Positions 12,303 to 37,066 of a DNA stretch of 42,489 nt are shown piece by piece. The notes beneath the pieces are model-generated. The model made no database searches. It was not told where the DNA came from and worked only from the letters and a program-made list of their open reading frames with translations. Within the stretch, counting starts at the first letter, position 1; every line of letters starts with the position of its first letter. This DNA is from a virus, in the IMG/VR virus record IMGVR_UViG_3300005043_000002; one strand, 5' to 3'. Position numbers and translations under genes: made by a program.

Positions 12303-12333
12303 ATGAAAACACACCGCTAACAGTCTGTCAACA
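12303..12333 (-). promoter_or_regulatory. Early-type sigma70-like promoter with the bipartite box, inside the late arm just after terL
   Basis: The minus strand reads TGTTGACA-gac-TGTTAGCG (12333-12315), then a -10-like TTTCAT (12308-12303) 17 nt after TTGACA. Confidence 0.5.
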
Positions 12334-12339
12334 ACTTAA

Positions 12340-13629: not shown

Positions 13630-14155
13630 CCTTGAGAACTGTTGGGGTTATATCCTTAAACTCTAATTTATCGACGAACATACCACGATCTTTACCAAGC
13701 ATATCAAGCGCGGCCTTTTTATCCGATACCTTGATTTTCATTACTTCGGCGAAACCTACGTTTTCATTTCCCACCATACATATATCAACGCCAGATATTG
13801 CGCCGGCGGTATCATCATCAAGTTTGGAAATATGGATAGGCTTGCCATCATCATCGAATAATTTACGCGCATCATAGAAGGCAATCTTTGCAAGTTCCGC
13901 AGTGATACGCTCGGCGGTAATGTTAAGTTTGTTCTGTACTTTAAGCCTCTCATTGCGCAAATAAGCCGCTATATGTGGTTTGTTGCGGTTTTCATAACCA
14001 ATAGACGAGGCCGCGTTTTCAGAGTATCCCGCGTCGATTGCAGCCTGTGTAGCGTTATCATCTACAAGCACATTGTCTGCCCATAATCTAGATTTGGCCG
14101 TCCACCCTTCGGATGCTGGTCTATCTTTATCATCGCTTGGTTTGGGTTCCGTCAT
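13607..14155 (-). CDS. terS: Terminase small subunit (Terminase_2 / P27 type)
   Basis: ATQAAIDAGYSENAASSIGYENRNKPHIAAYL matches the helix-turn-helix core of Terminase_2 small subunits. It is the first gene of the late arm. Confidence 0.8.
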   Translation of the reverse strand: MTEPKPSDDKDRPASEGWTAKSRLWADNVLVDDNATQAAIDAGYSENAASSIGYENRNKPHIAAYLRNERLKVQNKLNITAERITAELAKIAFYDARKLFDDDGKPIHISKLDDDTAGAISGVDICMVGNENVGFAEVMKIKVSDKKAALDMLGKDRGMFVDKLEFKDITPTVLKDDIPDDD

Positions 14156-14171: not shown

Positions 14172-14190
14172 TTGTTATCACAATGTTAGC
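14172..14190 (-). promoter_or_regulatory. Bipartite box in the late-operon leader (no TTGACA -35)
   Basis: The plus strand reads TGTTATCA-caa-TGTTAGCA and the minus strand reads TGCTAACA-ttg-TGATAACA. It lies 17-35 nt upstream of the terS ATG. Confidence 0.5.
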
Positions 14191-14270
14191 ACACTTCTAT
14201 ATGCGTTGGGAATATCAAAAACACCTAAAATACCCCCTATTATGTAAATGGGTTTGGGTAATAAAATTAC

Positions 14271-14320
14271 GGGCCATTTGGTGTCCAGTGTTCCTGTTGT
14301 TATATCAATGACTTAGCCTA
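14271..14320. repeat. Direct repeat copy 1 (core GGCCATTTGGTGTCCAGTGTT)
   Basis: About 50 bp, roughly 80 percent identical by eye to 14337..14386 (66-bp period). The core TTTGGTGTCCA recurs at 14571..14581. Confidence 0.8.
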
Positions 14321-14336
14321 AATATATTATGTTAAA

Positions 14337-14386
14337 TGGCCAGATGGTGTCCAGTGTTTATTTAATTAGATCAACGACTTAACCCT
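14337..14386. repeat. Direct repeat copy 2 (core GGCCAGATGGTGTCCAGTGTT)
   Basis: See 14271..14320. Confidence 0.8.
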
Positions 14387-14436
14387 ATTTCCCCCTCTTC
14401 TCTCTATATTTTCTCTACTTAAAAGAGTATATAGAG

Positions 14437-14469
14437 TTAAGGGGGGTCGATGCTATAATTGACCCCCTT
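14437..14469. other. G/C-run hairpin (TAAGGGGGGTC - 12-nt loop - GACCCCCTTA)
   Basis: Inverted repeat read directly. It is preceded by a second dyad, CTCTATAT...ATATAGAG (about 14399-14437). Confidence 0.7.
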
Positions 14470-14720
14470 AGTAAAATATAGAAATTAGTACAGCGTTTTT
14501 TTCAAACCCGAAAACAGGGGGTAAAAACCGCAGAGTTGAGCCGAATGAGTGGGTTTGGGTTTTTGGGGTAATTTGGTGTCCATTTACATAAGTAGGGTCA
14601 AATGTGTGATATGTAAAACAAAAACAGGTAAAAACAGGGTGTGAAAAGTGCTGTTTTAGGGTAAAAAGGGTCAAAAAGGGGTGAGCAAAACGCTGTTTCA
14701 GGTATGCTACGCAAGATTGT

Positions 14721-14751
14721 TGCTTGACACAGTGCTTACAGTGTGCAAGAG
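14721..14751 (+). promoter_or_regulatory. Early promoter P1 with bipartite box
   Basis: gcTTGACA-cag-TGCTTACA. The -10 region is weak (AAGAGT at 17 nt). A-tracts phased at about 10-11 bp lie upstream (14618-14690). It is 36 nt upstream of the first early ATG. Confidence 0.5.
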
Positions 14752-14786
14752 TACAGATATTGAAACGCTAACAGAGAGCAAACAGA

Positions 14787-18464: not shown

Positions 18465-18495
18465 TGTTGACACTGTGTTATCAACCTGCTATCAC
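18465..18495 (+). promoter_or_regulatory. Early promoter P2 with bipartite box
   Basis: TGTTGACA-ctg-TGTTATCA, with -10-like TATCAC 17 nt after TTGACA. Confidence 0.5.
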
Positions 18496-18523: not shown

Positions 18524-18655
18524 ATGACAAAAATTCAACAAAATCTTATCCGTTGCCAAATTAAGCAAACTAAAGCCTATGAAGAATTTACAGTGGGTAT
18601 CACGTTTGTAGCAGCGATGCTTTCAGCTCTGGCTGTATTCGTAGTGGTTATGTAA
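18524..18655 (+). CDS. 43-aa tail-anchored membrane micro-protein
   Basis: Start moved to MTKIQQNL (GGGAG upstream), because P2 lies inside the longer tracked ORF. C-terminal segment ITFVAAMLSALAVFVVVM. Confidence 0.5.
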   Translation: MTKIQQNLIRCQIKQTKAYEEFTVGITFVAAMLSALAVFVVVM

Positions 18656-19065
18656 TGAGCGGTTTTCGTCAAATAGGTGATATCACCGAAGAACTTTTAA
18701 CAGGAATAAATCCAATGAAACAAATTAAAATACCAGATCACGTATATGCTCGTATGGAGTCTCTATCCACTTTTCACGGCATGGGAATCCCCAATATTTC
18801 CGAGGCTCTTTTAGTTTACGCATGTAAGAAATTCGAGAAAGACGGTATTACATTGCCGCCCATGGGAAACACTGATTTTAACCGCGAAGATTTAGTCAAC
18901 GAGTCTATTGAGATTTCAAAACTCGGCACTCTAAAATATGTGGAATGGCTGGCAAAGTTATCACCTGCCGAAGAAAACGCGCTCAAATATTGTATAAAAG
19001 CGCATAAAAAAGTCGCAGAAGCAGCCACCAAAAAAACGGCTCTGGAAAACATGGGGATCGCATGA
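18655..19065 (+). CDS. Hypothetical protein (136 aa)
   Basis: Coupled ORF. Confidence 0.65.
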   Translation: MSGFRQIGDITEELLTGINPMKQIKIPDHVYARMESLSTFHGMGIPNISEALLVYACKKFEKDGITLPPMGNTDFNREDLVNESIEISKLGTLKYVEWLAKLSPAEENALKYCIKAHKKVAEAATKKTALENMGIA

Positions 19066-19274
19066 CCAAAAAACTCCGTGATCTTAAAGACAAAGAATGT
19101 CGTTGGCCTCTAGGTGATCCGAATGATAAGGATTTCGGATTTTGTGGCAAGAAAATATCTCACCGAAGTTATTGCGCCGAGCATACAATACAGAGCCAGC
19201 GTAGGGTTATTAAAACACCCGAAGAGATTGACGATGCGAATCGCTCAGAAAATACCACCGGAAACAGATGGTAA
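19062..19274 (+). CDS. GcrA C-terminal-domain-like protein (70 aa)
   Basis: KECRWPLGDPNDKDFGFCGKKISHRSYCAEH matches the conserved C.WP.GDP....F.FCG......YC..H block at the C-terminus of GcrA cell-cycle regulators. No N-terminal DNA-binding half is present. Confidence 0.6.
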   Translation: MTKKLRDLKDKECRWPLGDPNDKDFGFCGKKISHRSYCAEHTIQSQRRVIKTPEEIDDANRSENTTGNRW

Positions 19275-20404: not shown

Positions 20405-20434
20405 TGTTGACACTAAGCTAACACTGTGTAAAAT
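20405..20434 (+). promoter_or_regulatory. Early promoter P3 with bipartite box
   Basis: TGTTGACA-cta-AGCTAACA, with -10 TAAAAT at 16-nt spacing. Confidence 0.55.
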
Positions 20435-25083: not shown

Positions 25084-25290
25084 GTGATATCCGAAGAAAT
25101 GAACCAAGGATTAGATGAACTTGTTGAAGCTGGATTCCTAAAAGCTGAAAAATCAGATAACCCGCATTCTGATGCTATTACATGGAAACCCACCGAAAGA
25201 ATGTTATGCGAAAGGACATGGCTTGAAAAAGATTTTGTCATGAAAAACGCAAATTTTAAAATTATAGATGAAAGCAGAGTTAAAACATGA
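25084..25290 (+). CDS. Hypothetical 68-aa protein (GTG start as tracked); possibly the 3' part of a longer frame, 24973..25290, interrupted by one TAG
   Basis: No SD lies before GTG 25084 or ATG 25099. The same frame is open from ATG 24973 except for TAG at 25060-25062. Confidence 0.5.
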   Translation: MISEEMNQGLDELVEAGFLKAEKSDNPHSDAITWKPTERMLCERTWLEKDFVMKNANFKIIDESRVKT

Positions 25291-25748
25291 GTGAATCAAA
25301 CGTAGTTAAACGAATCATGATGGATTTATCTGCCATGGGTTGCCGCCTGTTTAGGAATAATGTCGGCGAAGTGTGGACGGGGAAATATAGACGCATAAAC
25401 AAAGATCAGGCCGTCATGTGTGAGGAGGGCGATGTAATCATAAAACACGCCCGCAGATTTCACGGGGGTCTTGTGGTTGGTTCTGGTGATATTATAGGCT
25501 GGACTCCGACATTAATCACGCCTGATATGGTGGGTCTAACGCTGGCAATATTCACAGATATAGAAGGAAAAAAAGACGAGAAAACCGCGATTTCTTCTGC
25601 AAAATCACGTTCAGCGCATGAACAAAGTCAACAACGATTCGCGGAGGCTGTTATAAAGGGCGGGGGATTTGCAGGATTTGCAGGCTCGACAGAGCAAGCG
25701 CAGGAAATTATAAACCCCTCTAGACTGACCGAGCCGCGTTGTCCTTAA
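25287..25748 (+). CDS. VRR-NUC domain nuclease
   Basis: The GSGDIIGW...IFTDIEGKK pattern (D...E.K) and the trailing Q..F......GG...F are typical of VRR-NUC proteins. Confidence 0.65.
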   Translation: MSESNVVKRIMMDLSAMGCRLFRNNVGEVWTGKYRRINKDQAVMCEEGDVIIKHARRFHGGLVVGSGDIIGWTPTLITPDMVGLTLAIFTDIEGKKDEKTAISSAKSRSAHEQSQQRFAEAVIKGGGFAGFAGSTEQAQEIINPSRLTEPRCP

Positions 25749-25896
25749 TAATTAGCATTTCAACAGCGTTAGACAAACTTGTCGTTGACGCGATTTCTCC
25801 GTCTTCAATTCTTTGTTTGTGAATCTTAACGAAACTTTCATAAGCTGCCGTCTTAACTCTAAAACCAACGGCTTTTAATTTAGTTTTTGTTTTCAT
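25720..25896 (-). CDS. 58-aa ribbon-helix-helix-like DNA-binding protein (untracked); candidate regulator
   Basis: Hand translation: MKTKTKLKAVGFRVKTAAYESFVKIHKQRIEDGEIASTTSLSNAVEMLIIKDNAARSV. AAGGAG lies 8 nt upstream. It has a basic N-terminus, a short beta-like AVGFRV and two helices, as in Arc/CopG. It is the only leftward gene in the early arm. Confidence 0.55.
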   Translation of the reverse strand: MKTKTKLKAVGFRVKTAAYESFVKIHKQRIEDGEIASTTSLSNAVEMLIIKDNAARSV

Positions 25897-25909
25897 TTAG
25901 TAAACTCCT

Positions 25910-25940
25910 TGTTGACATTGTGCTAACAGTAGTATATCAC
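25910..25940 (+). promoter_or_regulatory. Early promoter P4 with bipartite box
   Basis: TGTTGACA-ttg-TGCTAACA, with -10-like TATCAC at 17 nt. Confidence 0.55.
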
Positions 25941-25959
25941 ATTGATAACGATGTCAACA
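25931..25959 (-). promoter_or_regulatory. Leftward promoter for the RHH-like gene, overlapping P4 face to face
   Basis: The minus strand carries TTGACA (25957-25952) and an extended -10 TGaTATACT (25939-25931). Two more 8-mers, TGATAACG (25943-50) and TGTCAACA (25952-59), lie here. Confidence 0.45.
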
Positions 25960-26184
25960 AACAAAAAGGTATTTATTATGTTTAAGCGTATGATTTTTAG
26001 GATTAAACTTGCTTATGGGATGTTAATCGCAACAGACGAATCATTGCGTGATGTGGATCAGATTATTGATTTAATGTTTTTCGCGCAAAGAGGGCAAACG
26101 TTATATGTATGCACTTTAAAAAAATTCGGCAAGAACAATAATTTCGAACGTTTCAAGCCATTAATAACAATTAATAGAATATAA
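25951..26184 (+). CDS. Hypothetical 77-aa protein
   Basis: Start moved to the ATG (MSTNKKVF). The tracked TTG start lies inside the promoter region. Confidence 0.5.
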   Translation: MSTNKKVFIMFKRMIFRIKLAYGMLIATDESLRDVDQIIDLMFFAQRGQTLYVCTLKKFGKNNNFERFKPLITINRI

Positions 26185-26322
26185 TTTTTTATGGGGGTGC
26201 GGTGTTGACGCTTCAACAAGTGCGAGGGGCTTCTAAGGGCCAAATATTAATCCGCATCTCTACATAAGGCAGGTAATCAATCCTGTCACCCCCAGCCAAT
26301 TTATACAACGAAAGAAAAACCC
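26185..26322 (+). promoter_or_regulatory. Structured leader B (conserved 3' block shared with 19381..19421)
   Basis: TGCGG (26198-202) pairs with CCGCA (26252-56), and the G-run 26193-97 pairs with the C-run 26289-93. There is a local hairpin GTTGA-cgct-TCAAC. The last 49 nt resemble leader A up to the ATG. Confidence 0.45.
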
Positions 26323-27210
26323 ATGACTGCCCAATTAATCAAAGACCTATCAAATAAAGACTATCACGCGCACAAGGCTACGAGCCGATCCGCGTTAATG
26401 GAATTAAACAAATCCCCTAAAAAATATCATCACAAGTTTATTTCAGAAGATTACGAGCATAAAGAAACGGATGCCCTCCGCCTTGGTTCTGCGTTCCATA
26501 CTCTAGTTTTAGAGCCAGAGGATTTTGCGGAACATTGCGCAATTCATCCAGAGGGTAAAAAACGCCCAACGAAACCACAATTAAACGCCAAAGAAAAAAC
26601 GGACTCTACGGCTTTATTGATTAAGTTTTGGGAAAAATTCGACGATGAAAACGACGGTAAAACCATCATCAAACAGGACGAAGTTGATAAACTTACAGCC
26701 ATGGCGAAATCCCTGCGATCAGAACCAGCGGCGCAGAAAATCCTTGGCCAAAAGGGCTTGATTGAGCCGTCTATCTTCTGGACGGACAAGGAAACAGGTA
26801 TTGATATGAAGTGCAAACTTGATTTTGTGCCGTTGAATTACTCTATTCTCGTCGATCTTAAAACCACCGCAAGCGTAGACCGTAACAAATTCGAGAAATC
26901 TATCGCGGACTTCGGTTATGATTTGCAGGCGTTCATAGCAACAGAGGCGATATTTCAACTCACCGGAACACGCCCCGAAATGTTTGTTTTCGCCGCCGTT
27001 GAGAAAGAACCTCCTTACGATACAGGGTTTTTCATGGCCGATAGTATCGTCTTAAAGCGCGGTGAATTGCTCTACAGACATCTACTTAATAAGCTGGCCG
27101 GATGTCGTGTGAAAGACGAGTGGCCATCACAGGGCGGTGGAAAAGTGCAAGCCGTGTCATTGTCGCCGTGGGTCATTAATAAAATGGATGAATTGAAGGG
27201 TGAGGAATAA
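26323..27210 (+). CDS. PD-(D/E)XK exonuclease (RecE-like / DUF3799 type)
   Basis: ILVDLKTTASVD...FGYDLQAF is the D-x-K core typical of PDDEXK recombination exonucleases. Confidence 0.7.
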   Translation: MTAQLIKDLSNKDYHAHKATSRSALMELNKSPKKYHHKFISEDYEHKETDALRLGSAFHTLVLEPEDFAEHCAIHPEGKKRPTKPQLNAKEKTDSTALLIKFWEKFDDENDGKTIIKQDEVDKLTAMAKSLRSEPAAQKILGQKGLIEPSIFWTDKETGIDMKCKLDFVPLNYSILVDLKTTASVDRNKFEKSIADFGYDLQAFIATEAIFQLTGTRPEMFVFAAVEKEPPYDTGFFMADSIVLKRGELLYRHLLNKLAGCRVKDEWPSQGGGKVQAVSLSPWVINKMDELKGEE

Positions 27211-27870: not shown

Positions 27871-27901
27871 CATTGACACCCTGCTAACTAACCGTTAACA
27901 T
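27871..27901 (+). promoter_or_regulatory. Early promoter P5 with bipartite box
   Basis: caTTGACA-ccc-TGCTAACT, with -10-like TAACAT at 17 nt. Confidence 0.5.
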
Positions 27902-27927: not shown

Positions 27928-28821
27928 ATGAGCAACAGTTTACAATTAATCGAAACCGAACTAAAACAACCCGCTACAATGGGGCGCATGTCTCTTGCTC
28001 TTGGTTTTACCGACGTGGACGATCCGGCCGCAAAAAACGAGGCTCGGAAATATATATCTTCTGTTCTTGCCGAAATTGAGAAAACAGCGGGCGACCCTAA
28101 GAAGGATTTAACCATGTGTAGCGCGCCGAGTATTATACGCTGTATGGTTGACGCTGCAAAGATGAAAATGCAAATAGACGGCAGGCAACACGCGCACCTT
28201 ATAAAATATGGGAATAACGCCACCCTTCAAATCGGTTATAGGGGTTATCTTGCGAAAATAAAACAAGCATATCCCGACGCTGTTTTTACGGTCCAGCCAG
28301 TTTATCAAGGTGATGAAATCACCGTATGGCATGAAGATGGCAACCAATTTTATAAATATGTGAATAATAACCTGTTCTCCTCTGGTGAGAATAATTTCCT
28401 TGGTATCCTGTTCGCCGTCACGTACACCGACGGAGGCCGTCAAGTCAGTAAGGTGTCGGATGTGTCCAAAGAACGAGTTGACCGCGCCAAGAGTGCCGCA
28501 AAACAAAAATACGTGTGGGGTTCTGATTATATAGAGAAAGCAAAAGCGGCGGCGATTAAGAACGCATGCAAACACCTGTTCGCCAGTATAACCGATCTGC
28601 AAACCGTCATGAGATATGATAATGATAAAAATCATAAGGTAGATAATAACGCTACGGACCCGCAGACCCGCAGTATTCTGGATAATCTCAACGCAGATAT
28701 TGACTCGATCCTTCCCAAGAAACAGATAAGCGAAGACGAGGGCGGTGTTTTAGTTGATGAAGACGAGGGCGAATCCGGTGAAATAATAACAGTGAATGAA
28801 GACGAAGTGCAGATAATGTAA
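27928..28821 (+). CDS. recT: RecT-family single-strand annealing protein
   Basis: CSAPSIIRCMVDAAKMKMQIDG..HAHLIKYG..ATLQIGYRGY matches the RecT core pattern. Acidic C-terminal tail. Confidence 0.7.
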   Translation: MSNSLQLIETELKQPATMGRMSLALGFTDVDDPAAKNEARKYISSVLAEIEKTAGDPKKDLTMCSAPSIIRCMVDAAKMKMQIDGRQHAHLIKYGNNATLQIGYRGYLAKIKQAYPDAVFTVQPVYQGDEITVWHEDGNQFYKYVNNNLFSSGENNFLGILFAVTYTDGGRQVSKVSDVSKERVDRAKSAAKQKYVWGSDYIEKAKAAAIKNACKHLFASITDLQTVMRYDNDKNHKVDNNATDPQTRSILDNLNADIDSILPKKQISEDEGGVLVDEDEGESGEIITVNEDEVQIM

Positions 28822-28839: not shown

Positions 28840-28959
28840 ATGGGAGAGTATGCGGAAATGGAAATCGATAAACATATCGGTGACTGGAACGGGGAAATAT
28901 TCAGCGAATATCCATACGAAGACGACGACGATGAGGAATTACCTTTATTTAGTTGTTGA
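28840..28959 (+). CDS. 39-aa acidic micro-protein (untracked)
   Basis: Hand translation: MGEYAEMEIDKHIGDWNGEIFSEYPYEDDDDEELPLFSC. AAGGAG lies 10 nt upstream. Confidence 0.5.
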   Translation: MGEYAEMEIDKHIGDWNGEIFSEYPYEDDDDEELPLFSC

Positions 28960-28984
28960 CAGTGTGCTAACAGTCCGCTATCTT
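28954..28984 (+). promoter_or_regulatory. Early promoter P6 with bipartite box
   Basis: TGTTGACA-gtg-TGCTAACA, with -10-like TATCTT at 17 nt. Confidence 0.55.
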
Positions 28985-29745: not shown

Positions 29746-30051
29746 TTATTTGATCTCCAATTCTTCGGCGCGTAATTGAGCGGTTTCCGTGGTTGTTTTG
29801 CATAAGTTATTTAATACCAGTAATTCGTCGGTTGAGTTTTTAAACTCAGAGATTACCTTGTTCTTATTCTCTTTTGAAACAATCCCAGCCTTATAAGATT
29901 CAATCAACGAATCGGCCGCGACCTCTATAGATGCCGTGGAAATCTCGACTTGTTTCGTGCATGAAACGCCCGTGATCTTCTCTGTGATCATGGATAATGT
30001 AGAGCAACCGGATAACAATAAAACGCTAAGTATTAAGATTTTCATAAGCAT
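29746..30051 (-). CDS. Lipoprotein (101 aa); possible o-spanin-like or exclusion lipoprotein
   Basis: Signal sequence plus lipobox: MLMKILILSVLLLSGC. Confidence 0.6.
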   Translation of the reverse strand: MLMKILILSVLLLSGCSTLSMITEKITGVSCTKQVEISTASIEVAADSLIESYKAGIVSKENKNKVISEFKNSTDELLVLNNLCKTTTETAQLRAEELEIK

Positions 30052-30283
30052 TAACTTTCTTTTCTAAGATTTTAATTTTGCCAGCTTTTTTGTGATGGTT
30101 AACCAGTGACCACCCTTGGACGGTTATCAAACCAAGAACCGCAATAATATATTCTATTGTGTTCAACATGCTTTCTAACAACTCATATGTTAATCCATAA
30201 TCTTGTAATGCCTTGCTAAGAACGATACCAGCCGCAAACGCGCCCGCTGTTCTTGTAACACTACCTAGCTCTTTTTTCGGCAT
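30026..30283 (-). CDS. Putative holin (85 aa, two hydrophobic helices, basic C-terminus)
   Basis: Hydrophobic segments AGAFAAGIVLSKAL and YIIAVLGLITVQGWSL. Adjacent to the endolysin gene. Confidence 0.5.
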   Translation of the reverse strand: MPKKELGSVTRTAGAFAAGIVLSKALQDYGLTYELLESMLNTIEYIIAVLGLITVQGWSLVNHHKKAGKIKILEKKVNAYENLNT

Positions 30284-30295
30284 AATAAGCTCCTT

Positions 30296-30679
30296 TTAAT
30301 AAGACCAAATCGTAGGGGATATAAAACCGTCTTCTTCTGTAGCAGTCCCTATATGTATAAATCTACCGTGTCCTTTTTGCTTAAACCCTATGCGAGTAAA
30401 ACCAAATAATGGTGCGGCTTTCATAATATTATACGCTGTTTCACCTCTGCATGCAATATCGACAGCTTTACCTAGAGTATGCTCACCGGATTTAGATTTT
30501 TTAGCTTCTATAGGGTGAGTGGGGTGTCTGTAACCGGACGAAATAAATAAAGCTATTCCCAGACTTGTTCGCAGAGTTTGCAATTTGTCCATAAAATTCT
30601 TATTCATGAAACATTCGCCCGTGTGTGAACAGGTAAATTCATATTCTGAAAAATTATAGTACTCGTCCCAATTTATCAT
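30296..30679 (-). CDS. Endolysin, peptidase M15 (zinc D-Ala-D-Ala / L-Ala-D-Glu peptidase-like)
   Basis: SGYRHPTHPIEAKKSKSGEHTLGKAVDI...FIHI fits the M15 H-x(n)-D...H zinc motif. Start moved to MINWDEY, where the ATG overlaps the upstream TGA. Confidence 0.7.
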   Translation of the reverse strand: MINWDEYYNFSEYEFTCSHTGECFMNKNFMDKLQTLRTSLGIALFISSGYRHPTHPIEAKKSKSGEHTLGKAVDIACRGETAYNIMKAAPLFGFTRIGFKQKGHGRFIHIGTATEEDGFISPTIWSY

Positions 30680-31008
30680 GTCGCCGCACTCACTATAGCC
30701 CACGCCCATTTTGCACACCAAGCGAGAAAACCCATTATAATCGCACCACATGCGCCAGCACCCATCATCGCACCTTTTGAAATTTTATGGTTATCGTTTA
30801 AAGTTTCAACAACTGGCTCTATTTTTGTGACACGGTTTATAACGTCTTTTAATTCATACGCTTGATCGCGTTGGTTGTCCCGAACTTCATAAACCGTGGT
30901 TTTAACATCTTTAATGTCTGTTTTTACATCTCTTACAACATCGATTAAATCATTTATTTTTTCAGTCATTACACCAACCTGCACTTTTGTCGCTAAGAAG
31001 TCTGTCAT
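30676..31008 (-). CDS. XhlA-like protein (N-terminal coiled coil, C-terminal transmembrane segment)
   Basis: Architecture only: heptad-rich INDLIDVVRDVKTDIKDVKTTVYEV followed by GAMMGAGACGAIIMGFLAWCAKWAWAIV. Confidence 0.4.
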   Translation of the reverse strand: MTDFLATKVQVGVMTEKINDLIDVVRDVKTDIKDVKTTVYEVRDNQRDQAYELKDVINRVTKIEPVVETLNDNHKISKGAMMGAGACGAIIMGFLAWCAKWAWAIVSAAT

Positions 31009-31062
31009 GTTAGTCCTTAATATATCATAATAGTTTAATATAATCTATAACTGTAAAATTCG

Positions 31063-31350
31063 TTATTTGTTTTCGTTGTACCAACCTATGGTTGATTGAG
31101 ATAACTCTGAAATATCACCAGACATCACGCCGATAATTTCCAGAAGAATGCTTTGTGTATTGATTCCTTTTACAGGCACATACTCAGACCATTGACCGTC
31201 CTTATATGTCTGTCTCGCATCTTCGGGCGGTGTGTCAACCTCAATAGAATCTTTAGGCGGCTCTACACCACAAAAACCCCCGATATATGCGCCTTTTTTA
31301 TTTACGAAATGTTTTGTTTCAATCTTCTTTTTTTCAATTTTCTTTTTCAC
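31063..31350 (-). CDS. Possible tail fiber assembly protein (95 aa)
   Basis: Positioned after the fiber gene. PPEDARQTYKDGQWSEY resembles Tfa-type motifs. Confidence 0.35.
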   Translation of the reverse strand: MKKKIEKKKIETKHFVNKKGAYIGGFCGVEPPKDSIEVDTPPEDARQTYKDGQWSEYVPVKGINTQSILLEIIGVMSGDISELSQSTIGWYNENK

Positions 31351-31361
31351 TGTTCAAGCCT

Positions 31362-32123
31362 TTATGCGTTTATAATTAATGAGGTGAAAACCATGCGCCA
31401 ACTGGCAAGAGTGATATTTACTGTTGTTCCAATGACGGAATCCTGTTTATTGATAGCGACACCACTACTTGATTGTTGGACAAATATATCTGTTGCATCG
31501 CTCAACAATGTTAAACCTTGATTGTTATCATTGGATTGTGCCATTACAGCCGTGTAATTAATCCTATCGCCTATTGAATATCCATGTTCAGCAGTTTGAC
31601 AAACCAATTCAATAACCACAATATCAGGTTTTGCACTCAAAGTATGGGCAACTGTTAACGTCCCAGCATTAACAATTGTTTGTTCAGACGAAACATTCCT
31701 TTGACCCTTAGAGGATATATCACCAAGATATTCCCAGCTTGCATTATCCGCTTGTGACGGCAGCGCGTTCCCTTGGTTCGTGTTTATCTTTGATCCGTAT
31801 AATTCATATGTTGCCGTTTTCTTGACGATAGAATTCGCGTGGTATTCTGTACCTGTGTCGTACTCTGGAATACCCTCTTGTAAAACGTAACCAATTTGGT
31901 TAGTCATAACAAAATGAATTGCATTAAAATCTTGAAACGTTGGGATTTCTGTACCAGCAAGAGCCGCCGCCGCCCAACCTGTGGCCCAATCGGCAGTTTG
32001 AATATTCGATAAATCTGTGGAATACACAGGTGTACCGCTCGCAGGTGATCCATATTCCGTGATACCTGTCGCGCCTGCGGTCAATCCAAATATTTCTTGG
32101 GTTTTTCTTGGGATTTTAGTCAT
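31362..32123 (-). CDS. Tail fiber protein
   Basis: The N-terminal block IFGLTAGATGITEYGSPASGTPVYSTDLSNIQTADWATGW...FQDFNAIHF...YVLQEGIPEYDTGTEY is a widely conserved fiber N-terminus. It follows the baseplate genes. Confidence 0.65.
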   Translation of the reverse strand: MTKIPRKTQEIFGLTAGATGITEYGSPASGTPVYSTDLSNIQTADWATGWAAAALAGTEIPTFQDFNAIHFVMTNQIGYVLQEGIPEYDTGTEYHANSIVKKTATYELYGSKINTNQGNALPSQADNASWEYLGDISSKGQRNVSSEQTIVNAGTLTVAHTLSAKPDIVVIELVCQTAEHGYSIGDRINYTAVMAQSNDNNQGLTLLSDATDIFVQQSSSGVAINKQDSVIGTTVNITLASWRMVFTSLIINA

Positions 32124-32140
32124 GGTTTAAAGTCTCCGTT

Positions 32141-32881
32141 TTATAATATATCACTATTTGCGTTCAAAAATCTACCATCTTTTGTCAAACCGACAGTTGC
32201 GTCATTAAATCCGACAATGTAAGTGGGAATATTTGCGAGGTTGGTGGCGTCTGCCATGCCGAAAAACTCAGCGCCCGCCAAAACCTGTGAACCCACACCA
32301 GCAGGGCGGGGGAGTACATTCTTTTGCACCACTGCACTAATCAATTCGTTGCTAACATCGGCGATAAAATACGTCATGGTCATGTCGTAATTATCTTTCA
32401 TTAAAACCGTTGTACCAAAAAATTCAAACAACGAATCATTGATAGGCTTCACACCATGAGTAGAATTATTTTGGATGATACGCAATTTTATCAACGTCCG
32501 ATATGAATCGTCATTGAGGCGCAGATTGTTAGATATGACGGCATCAGAGGATAAAAACAAACCCTCTTTATCAGGCGCGGCGGCATCATCGAAACCTATA
32601 ATATTGGCCGAAACACTTCCCACATCTACGGCGTCCGCAAATCCGAAATAATTATCCGTAAGCTCAAAATTATAATAGAAACGATCTATATCCGCATACT
32701 TGCCCAATACATCAAGCTGCACACCGACGGCGGTATCAATGTTGTAAGCGTTCTGCACGTCCAGATATATATTATTTGCCAGAAATTCAGTGGCCAGAAG
32801 CTCAATCGTACCCATGGCATTGGGTTTATTATGATACTGGATTATCAGTAGATTGATATAATATGCAATTACTTCATTCAT
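32141..32881 (-). CDS. DUF2612-like baseplate/fiber-attachment protein
   Basis: The N-terminus YYINLLIIQYHNKPNA and the position after the Baseplate_J gene are typical of DUF2612. Confidence 0.55.
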   Translation of the reverse strand: MNEVIAYYINLLIIQYHNKPNAMGTIELLATEFLANNIYLDVQNAYNIDTAVGVQLDVLGKYADIDRFYYNFELTDNYFGFADAVDVGSVSANIIGFDDAAAPDKEGLFLSSDAVISNNLRLNDDSYRTLIKLRIIQNNSTHGVKPINDSLFEFFGTTVLMKDNYDMTMTYFIADVSNELISAVVQKNVLPRPAGVGSQVLAGAEFFGMADATNLANIPTYIVGFNDATVGLTKDGRFLNANSDIL

Positions 32882-34077
32882 TACAGCACCGTTATCGTGA
32901 TTCGAGTTGTATCTACAACAAATTGTTTATCTTTTGTGGACGTCTCAAGATAATCTATCCATACGACACCATCGTCAGAAACTTCCATGTTCACCGGAAC
33001 ACCACCACCGCCGTTCTCTGTAATGGCCGTTGATGCCGTTGCGGTTAAACTAGACGTTTCCGCAAACTCCCCAATTTCGTAAGATGTAGCAACAACAATA
33101 CTTGTTTTAATCGCGGCCTGATCGAATGTGGCCGCAGGATCGGTTTTTTGTATGTCGAAGCGCATATACAAATCTTCGGAGGTTGGACGGTCAAATTTTG
33201 CAGTGAAAATTGTACCTGATATTGTGGTAAAATCAACTGTAACGGCACCCTTCATATTTGCACCTGCGGTTTTCTTGGTGAATATCACGGTCCCGATATC
33301 TGTATTCGCACCGCCCCCGACGATACACCATATGGCATGAGCCGGAATACCATCGGCGTCCACCACATTTGTGATGTTCTCGTAAACTTTTGCGTTTGAA
33401 ACACCCTCCACATTCAACAGCGCGCCTTCTATGCCGTTTAAATATCCATTCGATGCAATCGCAACAGATCGTTGACGGCGTACTCTCAGCTCTGCGTCTG
33501 TCTCTTCGTCTGTACCTGTTGATAATACACCTACGCTGTTTATGACGCTGGTGACACCTAGGACCACGGTAACGAATTTTGTGATAGTCCCGATCACCGT
33601 TTCAACTTGGCCCACCTTGCGCGCTCTAAAATTACGAGAATACGCGCCAGCTATAAATGTCTCTGTATCGATCAATATCCATTCGTTTCCGGCATCGTCT
33701 GCTATCGTATAACCCACACCGTCGGCGTTATTGAAATCCGCGTCCAGACCCGCAAGAGTCACCGTCTCAGTAATTACAAGATCAATGGACTGTATTGTAT
33801 ATGTTCCGCCCTTGCGTGTGATGTTGTTTATTGTGACGCGCTGGTCTAAAACCACACCGACAGCTTGATCGGGGTCAAATCCTGCGTTGATCATTGTCAA
33901 AATCTCGCGCAAGTCCACATTCATTTGCGTGATTATGCCAATATTTTGGCCATCTGGTGAGTTTTGCTCGACGTTGATATCGTTGCCGTAAATATTCTTA
34001 TAAGCAGCGGTTAAATCTGCGAGAATTTCTGTGGCCGTCTTAACCTGTAATCCATCGGCGTTAATTAGATCGGGCAT
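32881..34077 (-). CDS. Baseplate J-like wedge protein
   Basis: 398 aa, positioned between the gp25/W-like and DUF2612-like genes, with a Baseplate_J-like central region. Confidence 0.7.
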   Translation of the reverse strand: MPDLINADGLQVKTATEILADLTAAYKNIYGNDINVEQNSPDGQNIGIITQMNVDLREILTMINAGFDPDQAVGVVLDQRVTINNITRKGGTYTIQSIDLVITETVTLAGLDADFNNADGVGYTIADDAGNEWILIDTETFIAGAYSRNFRARKVGQVETVIGTITKFVTVVLGVTSVINSVGVLSTGTDEETDAELRVRRQRSVAIASNGYLNGIEGALLNVEGVSNAKVYENITNVVDADGIPAHAIWCIVGGGANTDIGTVIFTKKTAGANMKGAVTVDFTTISGTIFTAKFDRPTSEDLYMRFDIQKTDPAATFDQAAIKTSIVVATSYEIGEFAETSSLTATASTAITENGGGGVPVNMEVSDDGVVWIDYLETSTKDKQFVVDTTRITITVL

Positions 34078-34079
34078 AA

Positions 34080-34433
34080 TTATATCCTTAACGTCAAGGT
34101 ATCAATGTATTCTTGACTAAAAATGGTGTTAATGCTGTAACTTGCCGTAAAATTACGGTCATTCAGTATAGTATCAAAACTAAGCAACTCTGTCACACCT
34201 TGAGTTTTTAAGATGATCCGGCGTATATCATTTTCTAATAAATTCCGTTGGTTTTTACTTCCTATTCTGTTCTTCCAATCGATTCCTTCGTTCTCTGCAA
34301 AGAAGCAATCCCCGATCCAACTGAGTAGGCGCGTCTTGATATCTATACCAATCGCTTGATTTCCACTTGTATAATTTTGTAAACCAGAACCGAATGTCCA
34401 ATCATGATTTTCTGTAAGATTTCTAAATGTCAT
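34080..34433 (-). CDS. Small baseplate wedge protein (gp25/W / XkdS-like)
   Basis: 117 aa, immediately upstream of the J-like gene. Confidence 0.5.
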   Translation of the reverse strand: MTFRNLTENHDWTFGSGLQNYTSGNQAIGIDIKTRLLSWIGDCFFAENEGIDWKNRIGSKNQRNLLENDIRRIILKTQGVTELLSFDTILNDRNFTASYSINTIFSQEYIDTLTLRI

Positions 34434-35077
34434 GTTCCACTTATCACAATCCCGTCGACCACTGTGACGACGTCAAAAGTTCCGGTTGCGCCATTGTCGG
34501 CATGTACGTCTTGAGCTTCTAATTTTCCCTCGACTCGCGTATCAGAATTAATAATAACGGTCGTTGCATTTACCGTCACACCCGCAGAGGTCAAATCAAT
34601 ACTGTTATTTTCATCCATAAAAATCCTGATACCGTTTCCAAGAAAATTTGGTATTGAGTTTGTTTTAGGTCTTATGCCGACGAGTGCGATACCATCCGAC
34701 AGATCATGCACGCGCCCGATTGTGGGGGCTTGGCCTGCGCCTGCGCTCAACCAATTATCGATTTGTCTATCCGAGAAAAACACAAGACAAGAATCCCCGA
34801 CAGTAATCGGCATATTAATGAATGAATCGCCGCCAAAAATTGTGACAACCGGACACTCTAATAATAAGGGGTATTGCCTGATTTGCTTAACGCCGTTCGT
34901 ATCTACAGATTCAACCTGATCAATTGAAATCTGAATACTTGCCAGTTGGGTAGCACTATCAAAACTTTCAATAGTTCCGATCTTCACACAGTTTAATGAT
35001 ACGGCCACTTCTCTTTTAACCGCGTCTAATAACGTTGTTAAATCGGGGTTTGCTATTGTGGAGTCTGTATTTGTCAT
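34430..35077 (-). CDS. Baseplate spike/assembly protein (Mu gp45 / P2 V-like)
   Basis: N-terminal OB-like region plus C-terminal beta-helix-like SIDLTSAGVTVNATTVIINSDTRVEGKLEAQDV. Confidence 0.6.
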   Translation of the reverse strand: MTNTDSTIANPDLTTLLDAVKREVAVSLNCVKIGTIESFDSATQLASIQISIDQVESVDTNGVKQIRQYPLLLECPVVTIFGGDSFINMPITVGDSCLVFFSDRQIDNWLSAGAGQAPTIGRVHDLSDGIALVGIRPKTNSIPNFLGNGIRIFMDENNSIDLTSAGVTVNATTVIINSDTRVEGKLEAQDVHADNGATGTFDVVTVVDGIVISGT

Positions 35078-35934
35078 TGCGATTCCTGTATAACTTCGAA
35101 CGTATTATTACCAACCCACAAGTTAAATATAGAGCGACAATCTCCCCCTACAGCGTCGGAAATTACACCTTGATGGTTGACGCCCACAACTTTATATTGT
35201 GAATTATATATGGGAAGTATCTCACTTTCAAGTGCTACAATTTGCCCAACCGTTACACGAGGTTCAAACAACGTAGTCACAGTTAAAAAACCATCATCGC
35301 GCCGTGGTGTTTCCAATAATCCAGATTCTATATTCAGGGCCGGAATATTACCCTCGATCACTTCATTATCTTTTAAAACGTATACGCGGTTGTTATCAAC
35401 AAACACCCCATTACCACCGTATTTTTTTAATTCGTTGAATGTCGCGCCATTAAAAACAACCGGACGTGTTAAAACATCTGTATATTTACCGATCGCGCCG
35501 ACTTTCAAACTTGGGAATTGTTGGATTAAAAAATTAACCACATCGCCGATAGTTTGGCCCGCATCGATTGTCGTATAAATCTTAGAGGTGGACACATCGA
35601 AACTACCGGATTTCGCTTCGATACGTGTTATAATGTCCGATCCCTCACGCGAGCTGTTTGCTTCAAATATGAATCCGTCGAACATTAAGGACAGGCTATC
35701 ATATCCGCCCTCGATTCTTACCGTTCTATCACGCACAGTAAATCTATCTTGGAATATACGGTCACGGTTAACATCGCCGAGATTATAAATATCTAAACTC
35801 ATATTATTAAGGGATGCAAGAGTATCGCGGCGTATCGAAAATCGAATGGTCAGAGGCAACGTCACAACTATTTCTGGTTGCCCGTCCTTTGGATCAATGA
35901 TTATTCTGTACGATCGACCGAATTTTTCACTCAT
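35074..35934 (-). CDS. Baseplate hub protein (gp27 / XkdQ-like)
   Basis: YRIIIDP...LTIRFSIRRDTLASLNNMSLDIYNL...VRIEGGY...FDGFIFEA is the hub signature seen in many myoviruses. Confidence 0.6.
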   Translation of the reverse strand: MSEKFGRSYRIIIDPKDGQPEIVVTLPLTIRFSIRRDTLASLNNMSLDIYNLGDVNRDRIFQDRFTVRDRTVRIEGGYDSLSLMFDGFIFEANSSREGSDIITRIEAKSGSFDVSTSKIYTTIDAGQTIGDVVNFLIQQFPSLKVGAIGKYTDVLTRPVVFNGATFNELKKYGGNGVFVDNNRVYVLKDNEVIEGNIPALNIESGLLETPRRDDGFLTVTTLFEPRVTVGQIVALESEILPIYNSQYKVVGVNHQGVISDAVGGDCRSIFNLWVGNNTFEVIQESQ

Positions 35935-36269
35935 GCAAACACCAGTTCTTCTATGCCTATAACGTCCGCCTCATCCAATAGATACAATGATGAATCTTGT
36001 GTTAGAAAAGCATCAATGAATTTAGGGTCTAATCCATCTATGGAATTACAGGAAATACCAAACGGTATAATATTACGCCACTTACGCAAGAGGTTAGGGG
36101 AGTTAACCACGCACAATCCAAACAGTTCAAACGTGTTCCACTGGATATCCATAAACCATTTTTCTTGGGTCGGCATGTAACGCAAAACCATATTTATTCG
36201 TTCGCCGCTTATACCAGTTAGAAAAAAATTCTGGTGAGCCGAGGTATCAATCTTGTTTAAGTATCTCAT
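35931..36269 (-). CDS. Small baseplate-module protein (112 aa)
   Basis: Coupled ORF between the tail-module genes. Confidence 0.5.
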   Translation of the reverse strand: MRYLNKIDTSAHQNFFLTGISGERINMVLRYMPTQEKWFMDIQWNTFELFGLCVVNSPNLLRKWRNIIPFGISCNSIDGLDPKFIDAFLTQDSSLYLLDEADVIGIEELVFA

Positions 36270-37066
36270 AGAAATTTTTCCAATTCTTCGGCGGTGTAGA
36301 TTTCAGTTAACTGCTCTTCTAGGCCCGCCATGTTTCCAACCTGTGTGAGTTCTTCGCGCTGTTCAAGCGAGCGGCCTTGGAATAATTCACTTGGTATATT
36401 TTCCTGTACGGTATATCTAGACGTCACCTGACTCGCAGTGAGTAAAGAAACTGTGCGGATTTCCTTCAATGTGATAGAGAAATCACTTATAAATCTAGAA
36501 TCTGCACCTTGGCGCGCTGTAACTGTTTCGATGGCCATGCGAGTCATAAACTCAAACGGCGTTTGAACTGATACTAGAATTTTCTGTTCCATTAGAGCCT
36601 TGAAATATCTATATGCTTGCTCTTGTTTTGATATTGGTGGGGTTATATTTTTTATAAACGCCCAATAATCGGCTATATTATTGACTGTATTTTCCCCCGA
36701 TTCGGTTGAATTAACTTCACGATCGCGAACTACTAATTGCTCCGCAGCGGCGGAAAGGGTAGGGAGAAACGCACTCAGGATTGTTAGTTTTCTGGTGACT
36801 GTCTGGACTATTCCGTCGTCTTCTTCGCCGCCATCAAATGTAAGTTCTCCAACAAATCCTTTAAGTGTAATTTTCTTAGGACGTATCGCGATATGATCTT
36901 GCACCGAGCTGTTATCTTCAAGAAAATGATCGGTGATCTCAGTCGATAAATTGACCGTTGTTTCGCCCTCGATGTCAAACACAAACCCACCAAGGCCAAA
37001 TGCGTTCAATGGTCTTACAACATAATTTAGAACCGAGTCTCTTAATATATCAAATTCGTTAGGCAT
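36266..37066 (-). CDS. Tail/baseplate protein (Mu gp43 DNA-circulation N-terminal-like)
   Basis: EITDHFLEDNSSVQDHIAIRPKKITLKGFV resembles the conserved IT.HP.E.G..I.DH....P..I.L.G block. It follows the tape measure gene. Confidence 0.45.
   Translation of the reverse strand: MPNEFDILRDSVLNYVVRPLNAFGLGGFVFDIEGETTVNLSTEITDHFLEDNSSVQDHIAIRPKKITLKGFVGELTFDGGEEDDGIVQTVTRKLTILSAFLPTLSAAAEQLVVRDREVNSTESGENTVNNIADYWAFIKNITPPISKQEQAYRYFKALMEQKILVSVQTPFEFMTRMAIETVTARQGADSRFISDFSITLKEIRTVSLLTASQVTSRYTVQENIPSELFQGRSLEQREELTQVGNMAGLEEQLTEIYTAEELEKFL

What the first reader, a model, noticed from the sequence alone, without database searches (positions are those of the whole stretch)
25720..25960. Untracked 58-aa RHH-like gene in a four-box, face-to-face promoter switch: the only leftward gene in the early arm
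A 58-aa ORF on the minus strand falls just under the track cutoff. It has a strong AAGGAG 8 nt before its ATG, and its 3' end overlaps the VRR-NUC gene convergently by 29 nt. Its sequence (basic N-terminus, AVGFRV strand, two helices) fits Arc/CopG-type ribbon-helix-helix repressors.

Its inferred promoter has a -35 at 25957-25952 and an extended -10 TGATATACT at 25939-25931. This shares its -10 region with the rightward promoter P4 (-35 at 25912-17, -10 at 25935-40). The two polymerases should therefore exclude each other and the transcripts would overlap, as in the P2/186-type Pe/Pc switches.

Four box 8-mers lie in 50 bp (25910, 25921, 25943, 25952), more than at any other site. The genome has no integrase or classical CI. 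This may therefore be a new type of temporal switch, or a switch for a non-integrating carrier state.
Basis: partly seen in the sequence, partly recalled or inferred. Interest (0 to 1): 0.7.

Follow-up and report, generated by a model that had tools for sequence, protein, structure and literature searches.

The report
Small repressor-like gene in promoter switch
A real, conserved 58-amino-acid phage gene, probably a small DNA-binding repressor, sits next to two overlapping back-to-back promoters that carry four copies of a short DNA box also found at the phage's other promoters; this is a new protein family in a familiar kind of phage control circuit, not a new kind of switch.

Summary
The sequence features are all there. 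The 58-aa ORF (25720-25896, minus strand) has AAGGAG 8 nt before its ATG and a 29-nt convergent overlap with the VRR-NUC gene. The four 8-mer boxes and both promoters are at the stated coordinates.

The gene is real. It has two distant homologues (53-54% identity) with an excess of third-codon-position changes. The 61-bp box region is 95% identical to one of them, against 60% in the adjacent coding sequence.

The protein has no significant Pfam, PHROG or PDB hit. A profile comparison links it to the N-terminal ribbon-helix-helix domain of conjugation protein TraM (hhalign 79%; score 27.9 against a shuffle null of 9.1±2.1). DNA-contact positions line up. The structure prediction was inconclusive.

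The box is a pseudo-palindrome, TGYTANCA. Box pairs mark nine sigma-70-type promoters (about one expected by chance), sitting on the -35 and in the spacer.

By its own coordinates the start sites are about 25924 (leftward) and 25947 (rightward). The promoters are therefore overlapping and divergent, and the transcripts do not overlap. This resembles P22 Pant/Pmnt with Arc, not P2/186.

Most likely this is an autoregulated repressor of the phage's early promoters. It is a new member of a known kind, and DNA binding is untested.

The parts
25720..25896 (-). 58-aa gene for a small RHH-like (TraM-N-domain-like) putative repressor
   Evidence: ORF. Homologues P0002 and P0003. Alignment A1. Third-position excess. 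hhalign to TraM RHH.
25905..25910 (-). Shine-Dalgarno AAGGAG, 8 nt before the ATG; shares one base with box 1R
   Evidence: Conserved in L004.
25910..25917 (+). Box 1R TGTTGACA. It contains the -35 (25912-25917) of the rightward promoter and lies at about +8 to +15 of the leftward promoter.
   Evidence: Invariant in L004 and L005.
25921..25928 (+). Box 2R TGCTAACA in the spacer of the rightward promoter, 11 bp start-to-start from box 1R
   Evidence: Position kept in L004 and L005.
25931..25940 (.). Overlapping -10 elements: leftward extended -10 TGATATACT (25939->25931) and rightward -10 TATCAC (25935-25940)
   Evidence: GTGnTATACTA is invariant in all three loci.
25943..25950 (-). Box 2L CGTTATCA in the spacer of the leftward promoter, 9 bp from box 1L and 11-bp phased with the boxes to its left
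   Evidence: L005 has TGTTGTCA at the same position.
25952..25959 (-). Box 1L TGTTGACA. It contains the -35 (25957->25952) of the leftward promoter, with only a 15-bp spacer to the -10.
   Evidence: Invariant in all three loci apart from one base in L004.
25978..26184 (+). First gene of the rightward promoter (68 aa, no known family). It is followed by the exonuclease (26323-27210) and RecT (27928-28821) recombination genes.
25287..25748 (+). VRR-NUC endonuclease gene, convergent with the small gene and overlapping it by 29 nt
   Evidence: The same convergent overlap (44 nt) is seen in L004.
25586..25609 (-). Candidate intrinsic terminator for the leftward transcript (hairpin plus T-run), inside the VRR-NUC coding region
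   Evidence: A related hairpin and T-run are present in L004, but the conservation may come from the protein coded on the other strand.
12315..12333 (-). Two-box promoter TGTTGACAgacTGTTAGCG (leftward, between terL and the next gene)
14173..14191 (+). Two-box site TGTTATCAcaaTGTTAGCA, next to the terS ribosome-binding site at the left edge of the control region
14722..14740 (+). Two-box promoter GCTTGACAcagTGCTTACA before the first early gene (14787)
18465..18494 (+). Three-box promoter TGTTGACA/TGTTATCA/TGCTATCA with 11-bp phasing
20405..20423 (+). Two-box promoter before the primase gene
27871..27889 (+). Two-box promoter CATTGACAcccTGCTAACT before RecT
28954..28972 (+). Two-box promoter TGTTGACAgtgTGCTAACA near the end of the early arm

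Best explanation
The 58-aa protein is most likely a small ribbon-helix-helix-type DNA-binding protein that acts as a dimer. Each dimer would read one 8-bp pseudo-palindromic box (consensus TGYTANCA). Neighbouring dimers, one helical turn apart, would bind side by side.

At its own locus four boxes (phased 11-11-11-9 bp if the -10 region is counted as a fifth position) cover two overlapping, divergent sigma-70-type promoters. For each promoter the boxes lie at about -35, in the spacer, at +1 and at +10. The two -10 elements overlap, so only one RNA polymerase can occupy the region at a time. Bound protein would shut off the rightward promoter, which drives the recombination genes. At higher occupancy it would also shut off its own leftward promoter, giving negative autoregulation. 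This is how Arc acts at P22 Pant/Pmnt.

The same box pair sits on the -35 and spacer of the phage's other promoters. The protein would therefore act as a general shut-off factor for early and middle transcription as it accumulates.

Shown: the gene is real and conserved; the box architecture is non-random and conserved; the promoters overlap and diverge. Inferred: the fold, DNA binding, which protein binds the boxes, and the direction of regulation.
For: Gene reality:
- The family has only three members among 1.8 billion representative proteins, at 53-54% identity and similar length.
- There are 19 invariant residues.
- Differences fall mostly on third codon positions (30-35 against 17-20 at positions 1 and 2), and 12-18 codons differ only synonymously.
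- A gene caller had already called it.

Fold:
- The AlphaFold monomer has an unstructured N-terminus followed by two helices (16-32 and 41-56). This is the RHH order if the strand forms only in the dimer.
- The best PDB profile hit is the TraM N-terminal RHH domain 4qpo (E 0.29).
- hhalign against three TraM N-domains taken from the PDB gives probability 79%, E 1.6e-5, over 39 ungapped columns.
- The score is 27.9 against 9.1±2.1 (maximum 14.6) for 150 column shuffles.
- Eleven other small proteins scored below 1%.
- In that alignment, invariant A9/G11/R13 fall on the TraM base-contacting Lys3/Gln5/Tyr7. S40-L41-S42 fall on Ser32-Leu33-Ser34, which clamp the phosphate backbone (PMC3159463).

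Boxes:
- There are nine box-pair sites against about one expected.
- Box 2 lies in the promoter spacer, which sigma-70 does not read. It is nevertheless conserved as TGYTANCA at a fixed 6 nt from the -10.
- Box 1L has a 15-bp spacer to its -10, poorly placed for a -35, yet is conserved.

Linkage of gene and boxes:
- The 61-bp core is 95% identical to L004, against 60% for the small CDS and 71% for VRR-NUC.
- L005 has different flanking genes and an HNH insertion, but keeps all four boxes in place.

Precedent:
- Arc represses the divergent, overlapping Pant and Pmnt.
- TraM represses its own promoter through its RHH domain.
Against: - No RHH family of Pfam matches any of the three proteins, and there is no PHROG hit.
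- The only database-wide statistic for TraM is E 0.29. The hhalign comparison was made after TraM had surfaced as the top hit, so its E-value overstates the support.
- The AlphaFold models have low confidence (pLDDT 66) and show no strand. Foldseek found nothing in the PDB or BFVD.
- Box 1 is identical to a consensus extended -35 (TGTTGACA), so part of the 'box' signal is simply promoter consensus.
- Two of the three predicted base-facing residues are Ala and Gly, which is unusual for sequence-specific reading.
- The isolated TraM RHH domain binds DNA about 500-fold more weakly than the tetramer. A 58-aa protein would need its own cooperativity.
- The 9-bp spacing of boxes 1L and 2L may be too short for two adjacent RHH dimers; TraM loses binding at 10 bp.
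- Another early protein (136 aa, 18655-19065) also looks RHH-like by eye and could be the box binder.
Confidence: 0.58

Rival explanations
1. The boxes are read by something other than the 58-aa protein, or are only a shared promoter design. Candidates are another phage protein, such as the 136-aa early protein or the GcrA-like 70-aa protein, or a host factor. In that case the 58-aa protein is a small early protein with some other role, and it sits beside a strong promoter pair only because that is where leftward transcription can start.
For: Box 1 equals the consensus extended -35, and every box site is a promoter. There is no significant family hit for the 58-aa protein. The 136-aa protein has an RHH-like sequence pattern by eye and lies directly downstream of the three-box promoter. 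A GcrA C-terminal-like protein is encoded at 19062-19274 (Pfam E 5e-13).
Against: The gene and the four-box module stay together in three loci even where the flanks differ. The specific match to the TraM RHH domain puts conserved residues at the DNA-contact positions. The 136-aa protein has no Pfam or PDB support either. The densest box cluster is at this gene's own promoter, which is typical of autoregulated repressors.
Confidence: 0.2
2. The main function is at the RNA and polymerase level. Leftward transcription from the switch runs head-on into read-through transcription from the upstream primase-helicase-VRR-NUC operon and is antisense to the 3' end of VRR-NUC. It would set timing by transcriptional interference or antisense pairing, and the peptide would be secondary.
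For: No rightward terminator was found between VRR-NUC and the switch. The convergent overlap with VRR-NUC is kept in L004 at 44 nt. Terminator-like hairpins for the leftward transcript lie 110-270 nt inside VRR-NUC.
Against: The protein sequence is under purifying selection. In L005 an HNH gene separates the small gene from VRR-NUC, so the overlap is dispensable. A strong SD and invariant residues point to a working protein.
Confidence: 0.1
3. The protein is the immunity repressor of a non-integrating carrier or pseudolysogenic state. It would hold all early promoters off while the genome persists as an episome.
For: All recognisable sigma-70-type promoters carry the boxes. No integrase was found among the ORFs scanned. 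The gene is read opposite to the lytic genes, as classical repressor genes are.
Against: No partition, plasmid-replication, anti-repressor or immunity-related functions were detected. The gene lies in the middle of the replication and recombination arm rather than at a boundary. No related prophage or plasmid copy was found in 185,579 genomes. The family is known only from metagenomic phage-like contigs.
Confidence: 0.07

Closest known systems
P22 immI region: Arc (RHH) at the overlapping divergent promoters Pant and Pmnt
   Same: A very small protein (53 aa in P22, 58 aa here) of RHH type. The operator lies within or over the promoters. The two promoters are divergent and overlapping, and one bound repressor turns both down (PMC2724298). 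The repressor gene is read from one of the two promoters, so it is autoregulated.
   Different: There is no detectable sequence relationship to Arc or Mnt (hhalign below 1%). Arc uses one 21-bp operator with two subsites; here there are four 8-bp boxes, and the same boxes occur at seven further promoters. No Mnt or Ant partners are present. P22 immI is an accessory immunity region of a temperate phage, whereas this phage shows no lysogeny genes.
TraM of F-like plasmids, N-terminal RHH domain (PDB 4qpo, 1dp3, 3omy, 3on0)
   Same: It is the only detectable sequence relative (hhalign 79%, 39 ungapped columns). The base-contact and phosphate-clamp positions correspond. TraM reads short pseudo-palindromes repeated about one helical turn apart and represses its own promoter (PMC3159463).
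   Different: TraM is 127 aa, with a C-terminal tetramerisation and TraD-binding domain that is absent here. Its motifs (GANTC, A(G/C)CG(G/C)T) differ from TGYTANCA. Its setting is a plasmid oriT and relaxosome, not a phage promoter regulon.
CopG (pMV158) and MetJ: minimal RHH repressors on repeated boxes
   Same: CopG is essentially a bare RHH domain of 45 aa that occludes the -35 and spacer of its own promoter. By my own knowledge, MetJ dimers bind tandem 8-bp palindromic met boxes, which is the closest analogue for one dimer per 8-bp box.
   Different: No sequence similarity was detected. CopG controls a single promoter. MetJ needs a co-repressor and its boxes abut each other at 8-bp spacing.
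   Same: Two opposed promoters lie within one short control region. In 186 there is an array of direct-repeat sites with 10-11 bp spacing (the Apl sites) (PMC7498355).
   Different: Those promoters are convergent and 40-60 bp apart, with overlapping transcripts and transcriptional interference. Here the start sites are about 23 bp apart and point away from each other. No CI, Cox/Apl or integrase is present.

Membership tests
Ribbon-helix-helix (RHH/MetJ-Arc) superfamily | Strand-helix-helix order in about 45-60 residues, with the N-terminal strand pairing in a dimer | tested here: inconclusive
   The AlphaFold monomer (alone and with the 3-sequence alignment) gives coil 1-15 and helices 16-32 and 41-56 at pLDDT 66. 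This fits the order, but no strand forms. Foldseek found no match.
Ribbon-helix-helix (RHH/MetJ-Arc) superfamily | Significant sequence or profile match to an established RHH family | tested here: inconclusive
   Pfam shows no RHH family for any of the three members. The PDB profile search puts the TraM RHH domain top at E 0.29. hhalign to the TraM N-domains gives 79% and a score of 27.9 against a shuffle maximum of 14.6. Arc, Mnt, CopG, MetJ, ParG and omega all score below 1%.
Ribbon-helix-helix (RHH/MetJ-Arc) superfamily | Conserved Gly at the end of helix 1 and a Ser/Thr N-cap of helix 2 that contacts the phosphate backbone | tested here: met
   G33 and T39-S40 are invariant. S40-L41-S42 align with TraM Ser32-Leu33-Ser34, the phosphate-contacting residues.
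Ribbon-helix-helix (RHH/MetJ-Arc) superfamily | Binds repeated or palindromic DNA sites as a dimer of dimers or higher order | not testable with these tools
   Only the candidate sites are seen: pseudo-palindromic boxes about 11 bp apart, next to the gene.
TraM family (Pfam Tra_M, F-like plasmids) | C-terminal tetramerisation and TraD-binding domain (residues about 58-127) | tested here: not met
   The protein is 58 aa and ends where the TraM linker begins. Pfam gave no Tra_M hit.
TraM family (Pfam Tra_M, F-like plasmids) | Encoded beside a plasmid oriT and relaxosome genes | tested here: not met
   The neighbours are phage replication and recombination genes: helicase, VRR-NUC, exonuclease and RecT.
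P2/186-type face-to-face lysis-lysogeny switch | Convergent promoters 40-60 bp apart with overlapping transcripts | tested here: not met
   From the hexamer positions the start sites are about 25924 (leftward) and 25947 (rightward), so the transcripts diverge. The definition comes from PMC7498355.
P2/186-type face-to-face lysis-lysogeny switch | CI-type repressor, Cox/Apl and integrase | tested here: not met
   None was found in Pfam or PHROG scans of the ORFs or in the precomputed Pfam hits on the contig.
P22 Arc/Mnt family (Pfam Arc) | Sequence membership | tested here: not met
   There was no Pfam hit, and hhalign gave 0.6% for Arc and 0.1% for Mnt. Only the local strand motif (V-G-F-R-V against Arc F-N-L-R-W) looks similar by eye.
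P22 Arc/Mnt family (Pfam Arc) | Operator within overlapping divergent promoters (functional architecture) | tested here: met
   The promoter geometry was read from the sequence and is conserved in L004 and L005. The comparison is with PMC2724298.

The most novel reading that the evidence does not exclude
The small gene and its four-box promoter pair form a self-contained, portable regulatory cassette. It would encode the master regulator of every sigma-70-type promoter of a phage without lysogeny genes. It appears in different gene contexts, and in one case lies next to an HNH endonuclease. If it sets a reversible all-off state (a non-integrating carrier state) rather than only a one-way early shut-off, it would be a minimal single-protein immunity system built from a TraM-like RHH domain.
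Probability: 0.1. Interest if true: 0.65.

Novelty: new member of a known kind. Interest (0 to 1): 0.4.

Why it matters
If the protein does bind the boxes, a single 58-aa protein and an 8-bp box would account for the control of all recognisable promoters of an uncultivated 42.5-kb myovirus. That would make a compact and easily testable model of early shut-off. It would also provide a new orthogonal repressor/operator pair for synthetic circuits.

It would extend the known reach of the TraM-type RHH domain from plasmid conjugation to phage transcription. It is also a reminder that ORFs under 60 aa that sit between annotated genes can be key regulators.

It does not open a new class of mechanism. 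Overlapping divergent promoters controlled by a tiny RHH repressor have been known since P22 Arc.

Tried and rejected
- DNA searches of annotated phages, near and distant, and a tblastn of the 58-aa protein against them found no relatives.
- A word-indexed protein search with the single sequence and with the 3-sequence profile found only the same three proteins.
- Protein-pattern scans of IMG/VR, JGI metagenomes and GTDB genomes with the exonuclease, VRR-NUC and the family alignment found no relatives.
- An exact degenerate pattern of the whole switch found nothing in the three collections.
- The two-box motif in IMG/VR gave 20 single-match contigs, roughly my own estimate for chance, and none is a relative.
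- One contig (L027) has five copies of a similar motif inside a longer repeat. Another (L009) has a similar box run between two RHH-looking genes. Both are unrelated in sequence.
- Single-sequence PDB searches gave only spurious hits, namely designed repeat proteins.
- Foldseek with the low-confidence model found nothing.
- Distant VRR-NUC-bearing phages (Bordetella PBb001, Serratia MQ-4) have no leftward gene after VRR-NUC.
- Considered and rejected: the switch conservation reflects a small plus-strand ORF (25887-25985, TTG start). That frame has stops in L005 and has no ribosome-binding site.
- Considered and rejected by eye: LexA, CRP, PhoB and sigma-54 sites. The spacing or the half-sites do not fit.
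- Considered and rejected by eye: a T4 MotA-box-like element. Its position relative to the -10 is wrong, and a consensus -35 is present.
- The 26185-26322 region as a structured RNA: fold z-score -1.2 and no Rfam hit.
Full report
**What is in the sequence.**

The window is a complete-looking 42.5-kb phage genome. One long leftward arm carries terminase, portal, capsid, tail and lysis genes (1-14155, continuing at 29746-42469). A rightward arm (14787 to about 29500) carries replication and recombination genes.

Inside the rightward arm, the minus-strand ORF 25720..25896 encodes 58 aa. AAGGAG lies 8 nt before its ATG. Its last 29 nt overlap the end of the plus-strand gene 25287..25748. That gene is a VRR-NUC endonuclease by PHROG and by annotated phage homologues.

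Gene calls on identical public contigs show this as the only gene on that strand within the arm.

**Is the gene real?**

Yes. An exhaustive HMMER scan of 1.8 billion representative proteins found only two relatives: P0002 (62 aa, 54% identity) and P0003 (63 aa, 53%). The three share 19 invariant residues: K8 A9 G11 F12 R13 Y19 F22 H26 G33 I35 T39 S40 E46 M47 L48 K51 D52 N53, plus the initiator Met.

Pairwise codon comparison shows 30-35 differences at third positions against 17-20 at first and second positions. Between 12 and 18 codons differ only synonymously. This is the signature of selection on a protein.

No further relatives exist in annotated phages, IMG/VR, the JGI metagenome set or one genome per GTDB species. 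The family is very rare.

**The control region is conserved more strongly than the genes.**

- P0002 lies on a 637-bp contig (L004) with the same layout: a convergent VRR-NUC (70% protein identity) overlapping it by 44 nt, and a divergent ORF that starts MFK as in the window.
- P0003 lies on a 1071-bp contig (L005). There an HNH endonuclease gene sits between the small gene and the VRR-NUC end. The upstream flank is an unrelated same-strand membrane-protein ORF.
- Between the window and L004, the 61-bp core 25905-25965 is 95% identical. The small CDS is 60% identical and VRR-NUC 71%.
- L005 keeps both TGTTGACA copies, both inner boxes and GTGnTATACTA at the same relative positions.

**What the boxes are.**

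All six exact TGTTGACA copies in the genome are intergenic and point the same way as the next gene. Each is followed, after 3 nt (1 nt at the leftward promoter), by a second box, then 6 nt, then a -10-like hexamer. An SD and ATG follow 25-45 nt downstream.

The two-box pattern, allowing up to 3 mismatches, occurs at eight distinct sites against 1.07±1.03 expected by chance. The leftward variant is the ninth.

Box 1 contains the -35 hexamer TTGACA. Box 2 (consensus TGYTANCA across 13 examples, read) lies in the spacer, which sigma-70 does not read base-specifically. Its conservation therefore points to a separate DNA-binding factor.

All boxes are one- or two-mismatch versions of the perfect palindrome TGTTAACA. 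Other promoters have two boxes, and 18465 has three.

**Promoter geometry.**

The rightward promoter has its -35 at 25912-17, a 17-bp spacer and its -10 at 25935-40. Its start is therefore near 25947. The leftward promoter has its -35 at 25957->52, a 15-bp spacer and an extended -10 TGATATACT at 25939->31. Its start is therefore near 25924.

The leftward start lies to the left of the rightward start. The transcripts diverge and do not overlap. Each promoter's -35 box lies at about +6 to +15 of the other, and the two -10 elements share bases. However, the arrangement is 'overlapping divergent'.

P2-like switches are convergent, 40-60 bp apart, with overlapping transcripts (PMC7498355). The published precedent for the present layout is P22 Pant/Pmnt: 'two divergent and overlapping promoters', both repressed when Arc binds its operator (PMC2724298).

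The generic promoter scan missed both promoters. The leftward spacer is 15 bp and the rightward -10 ends in C.

**What the protein is.**

- Pfam, PHROGs and single-sequence PDB searches give nothing significant.
- AlphaFold (monomer only, pLDDT 66) gives a disordered N-terminus followed by two helices. Foldseek finds nothing.
- A profile of the three sequences ranks the TraM N-terminal domain (4qpo) first in the PDB, but only at E 0.29.
- I recovered three TraM N-domain sequences from the PDB, aligned them and ran hhalign. The result was probability 79%, E 1.6e-5, over 39 ungapped columns.
- Column-shuffled versions of the family score 9.1±2.1 (maximum 14.6) against 27.9 for the real alignment.
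- Arc, Mnt, CopG, MetJ, ParG, omega and five non-RHH controls all score below 1%.
- The TraM N-domain is an established RHH. Its Lys3, Gln5 and Tyr7 read the bases, and Ser32-Leu33-Ser34 at the start of helix 2 hold the phosphate backbone (PMC3159463).
- In the alignment these positions correspond to the family's invariant A9, G11, R13 and S40-L41-S42.

I judge the RHH assignment likely, at roughly 70-75%, but not proven. The hhalign test was run after TraM had surfaced, so it is not an independent database-wide statistic.

**Most likely mechanism (inferred).**

Dimers of the protein each bind one pseudo-palindromic box. The symmetric R13 side chains would be the probable readers of the invariant G2 and of the G opposite C7. 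Adjacent dimers one helical turn apart would bind cooperatively.

At the seven other promoters this would cover the -35 and the spacer and block RNA polymerase, as CopG and Arc do. At its own locus the four boxes cover both promoters, giving repression of the recombination-gene promoter and autoregulation.

Because the polymerases compete for the shared -10, weak occupancy of the rightward boxes could at first favour the leftward promoter. This is speculation.

The net effect would be a timed shut-off of early and middle transcription. Confidence in this overall picture is about 0.58.

**Rivals.**

- (a) The boxes are read by another factor, or are only a shared promoter design, and the small protein does something else (0.2). 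The 136-aa early protein looks RHH-like by eye and there is a GcrA-like protein. Neither has more support.
- (b) The leftward transcript acts mainly by collision or antisense against read-through from the upstream operon (0.1). The protein-level conservation and the HNH insertion in L005 argue against this.
- (c) It is a carrier-state immunity repressor (0.07). No partition or integration genes were found, and there are no genomic copies in 185,579 genomes.

**Comparison, novelty and score.**

It works like P22 Arc at Pant/Pmnt, but it is not a sequence member of the Arc family. It is distantly similar to the TraM RHH domain but lacks TraM's defining C-terminal domain and its plasmid context. 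It fails every defining feature of the P2/186 switch.

It is therefore a new, very rare protein family that fills a known role in a known architecture: a new member of a known kind.

Interest is moderate, at 0.4. This is a clean, testable minimal regulon in an uncultivated phage and a possible new link between the TraM-type RHH domain and phage transcription, but not a new mechanism.

Noticed in passing
window 14212-14786: The 630-bp non-coding region between the divergent arms (terS to the left, first early gene to the right) holds three copies of GGCCAnnTGGTGTCCA(GTGTT), at 14271, 14337 and 14566. It also has two copies of AAAACAGGGnGTnAAAA and two long-range inverted repeats. This could be an origin, a pac site or the late-promoter control region. 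One copy overlaps a leftward promoter-like site (TGGACA-16-CATAAT, 14353->14326).
   Followed up: partly
window 14173-14191: A box pair TGTTATCAcaaTGTTAGCA lies directly next to the terS ribosome-binding site. Any box-binding protein would therefore also sit on the leader of the late (packaging) operon.
   Followed up: no
window 18655-19065: A 136-aa early protein just downstream of the three-box promoter has an RHH-like sequence pattern by eye (KQIKIPDHVYARMESLSTFHGMGIPNISEALLVY). It has no Pfam or PDB hit. It is a possible second small DNA-binding protein and a rival box binder.
   Followed up: partly
window 19062-19274: A 70-aa protein matches only the C-terminal part (positions 102-147) of the GcrA cell-cycle regulator (Pfam E 5e-13). 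By my own knowledge that part of GcrA contacts sigma-70. It is a possible phage modulator of host RNA polymerase.
   Followed up: no
window 26185-26322: A 138-bp gap after the 68-aa gene contains the palindrome TGTTGAcgcTTCAACA (box-like half-sites) and a GGGGGTG...CACCCCC pairing. The RNA fold is not better than shuffles (z -1.2) and there is no Rfam hit.
   Followed up: yes
L005 1-486 and 734-1017: In the most divergent relative, an HNH endonuclease gene is inserted between the small gene and VRR-NUC. An RDD-like membrane-protein ORF on the same strand ends inside the box region. The rightward promoter there has no obvious gene to serve, yet all four boxes are kept.
   Followed up: partly
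L009 1-2140 (IMGVR_UViG_3300048599_000916): This is an unrelated temperate-looking contig. An integrase is followed by a leftward 96-aa gene and a rightward 56-aa gene, both RHH-looking by eye. Between them lies TGTTGACAaccTGCTAACAaaTGCTAAACtaTGCTAAAT. It has no sequence similarity to the family studied here.
   Followed up: partly
L027 (IMGVR_UViG_638275726_000006): There are five copies of TGTTGACAAAGTGCTAGCA-like sequence, embedded in a repeat of about 60 nt, within 12 kb. Their nature was not determined.
   Followed up: no
window 25450-25466 and 25586-25609 (minus strand): Two terminator-like hairpins with T-runs lie antisense inside the VRR-NUC gene (4 such sites in 1.7 kb against 1.1 expected). 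They could end the leftward transcript. The T-run coincides with the conserved KKDEKT coding segment.
   Followed up: partly
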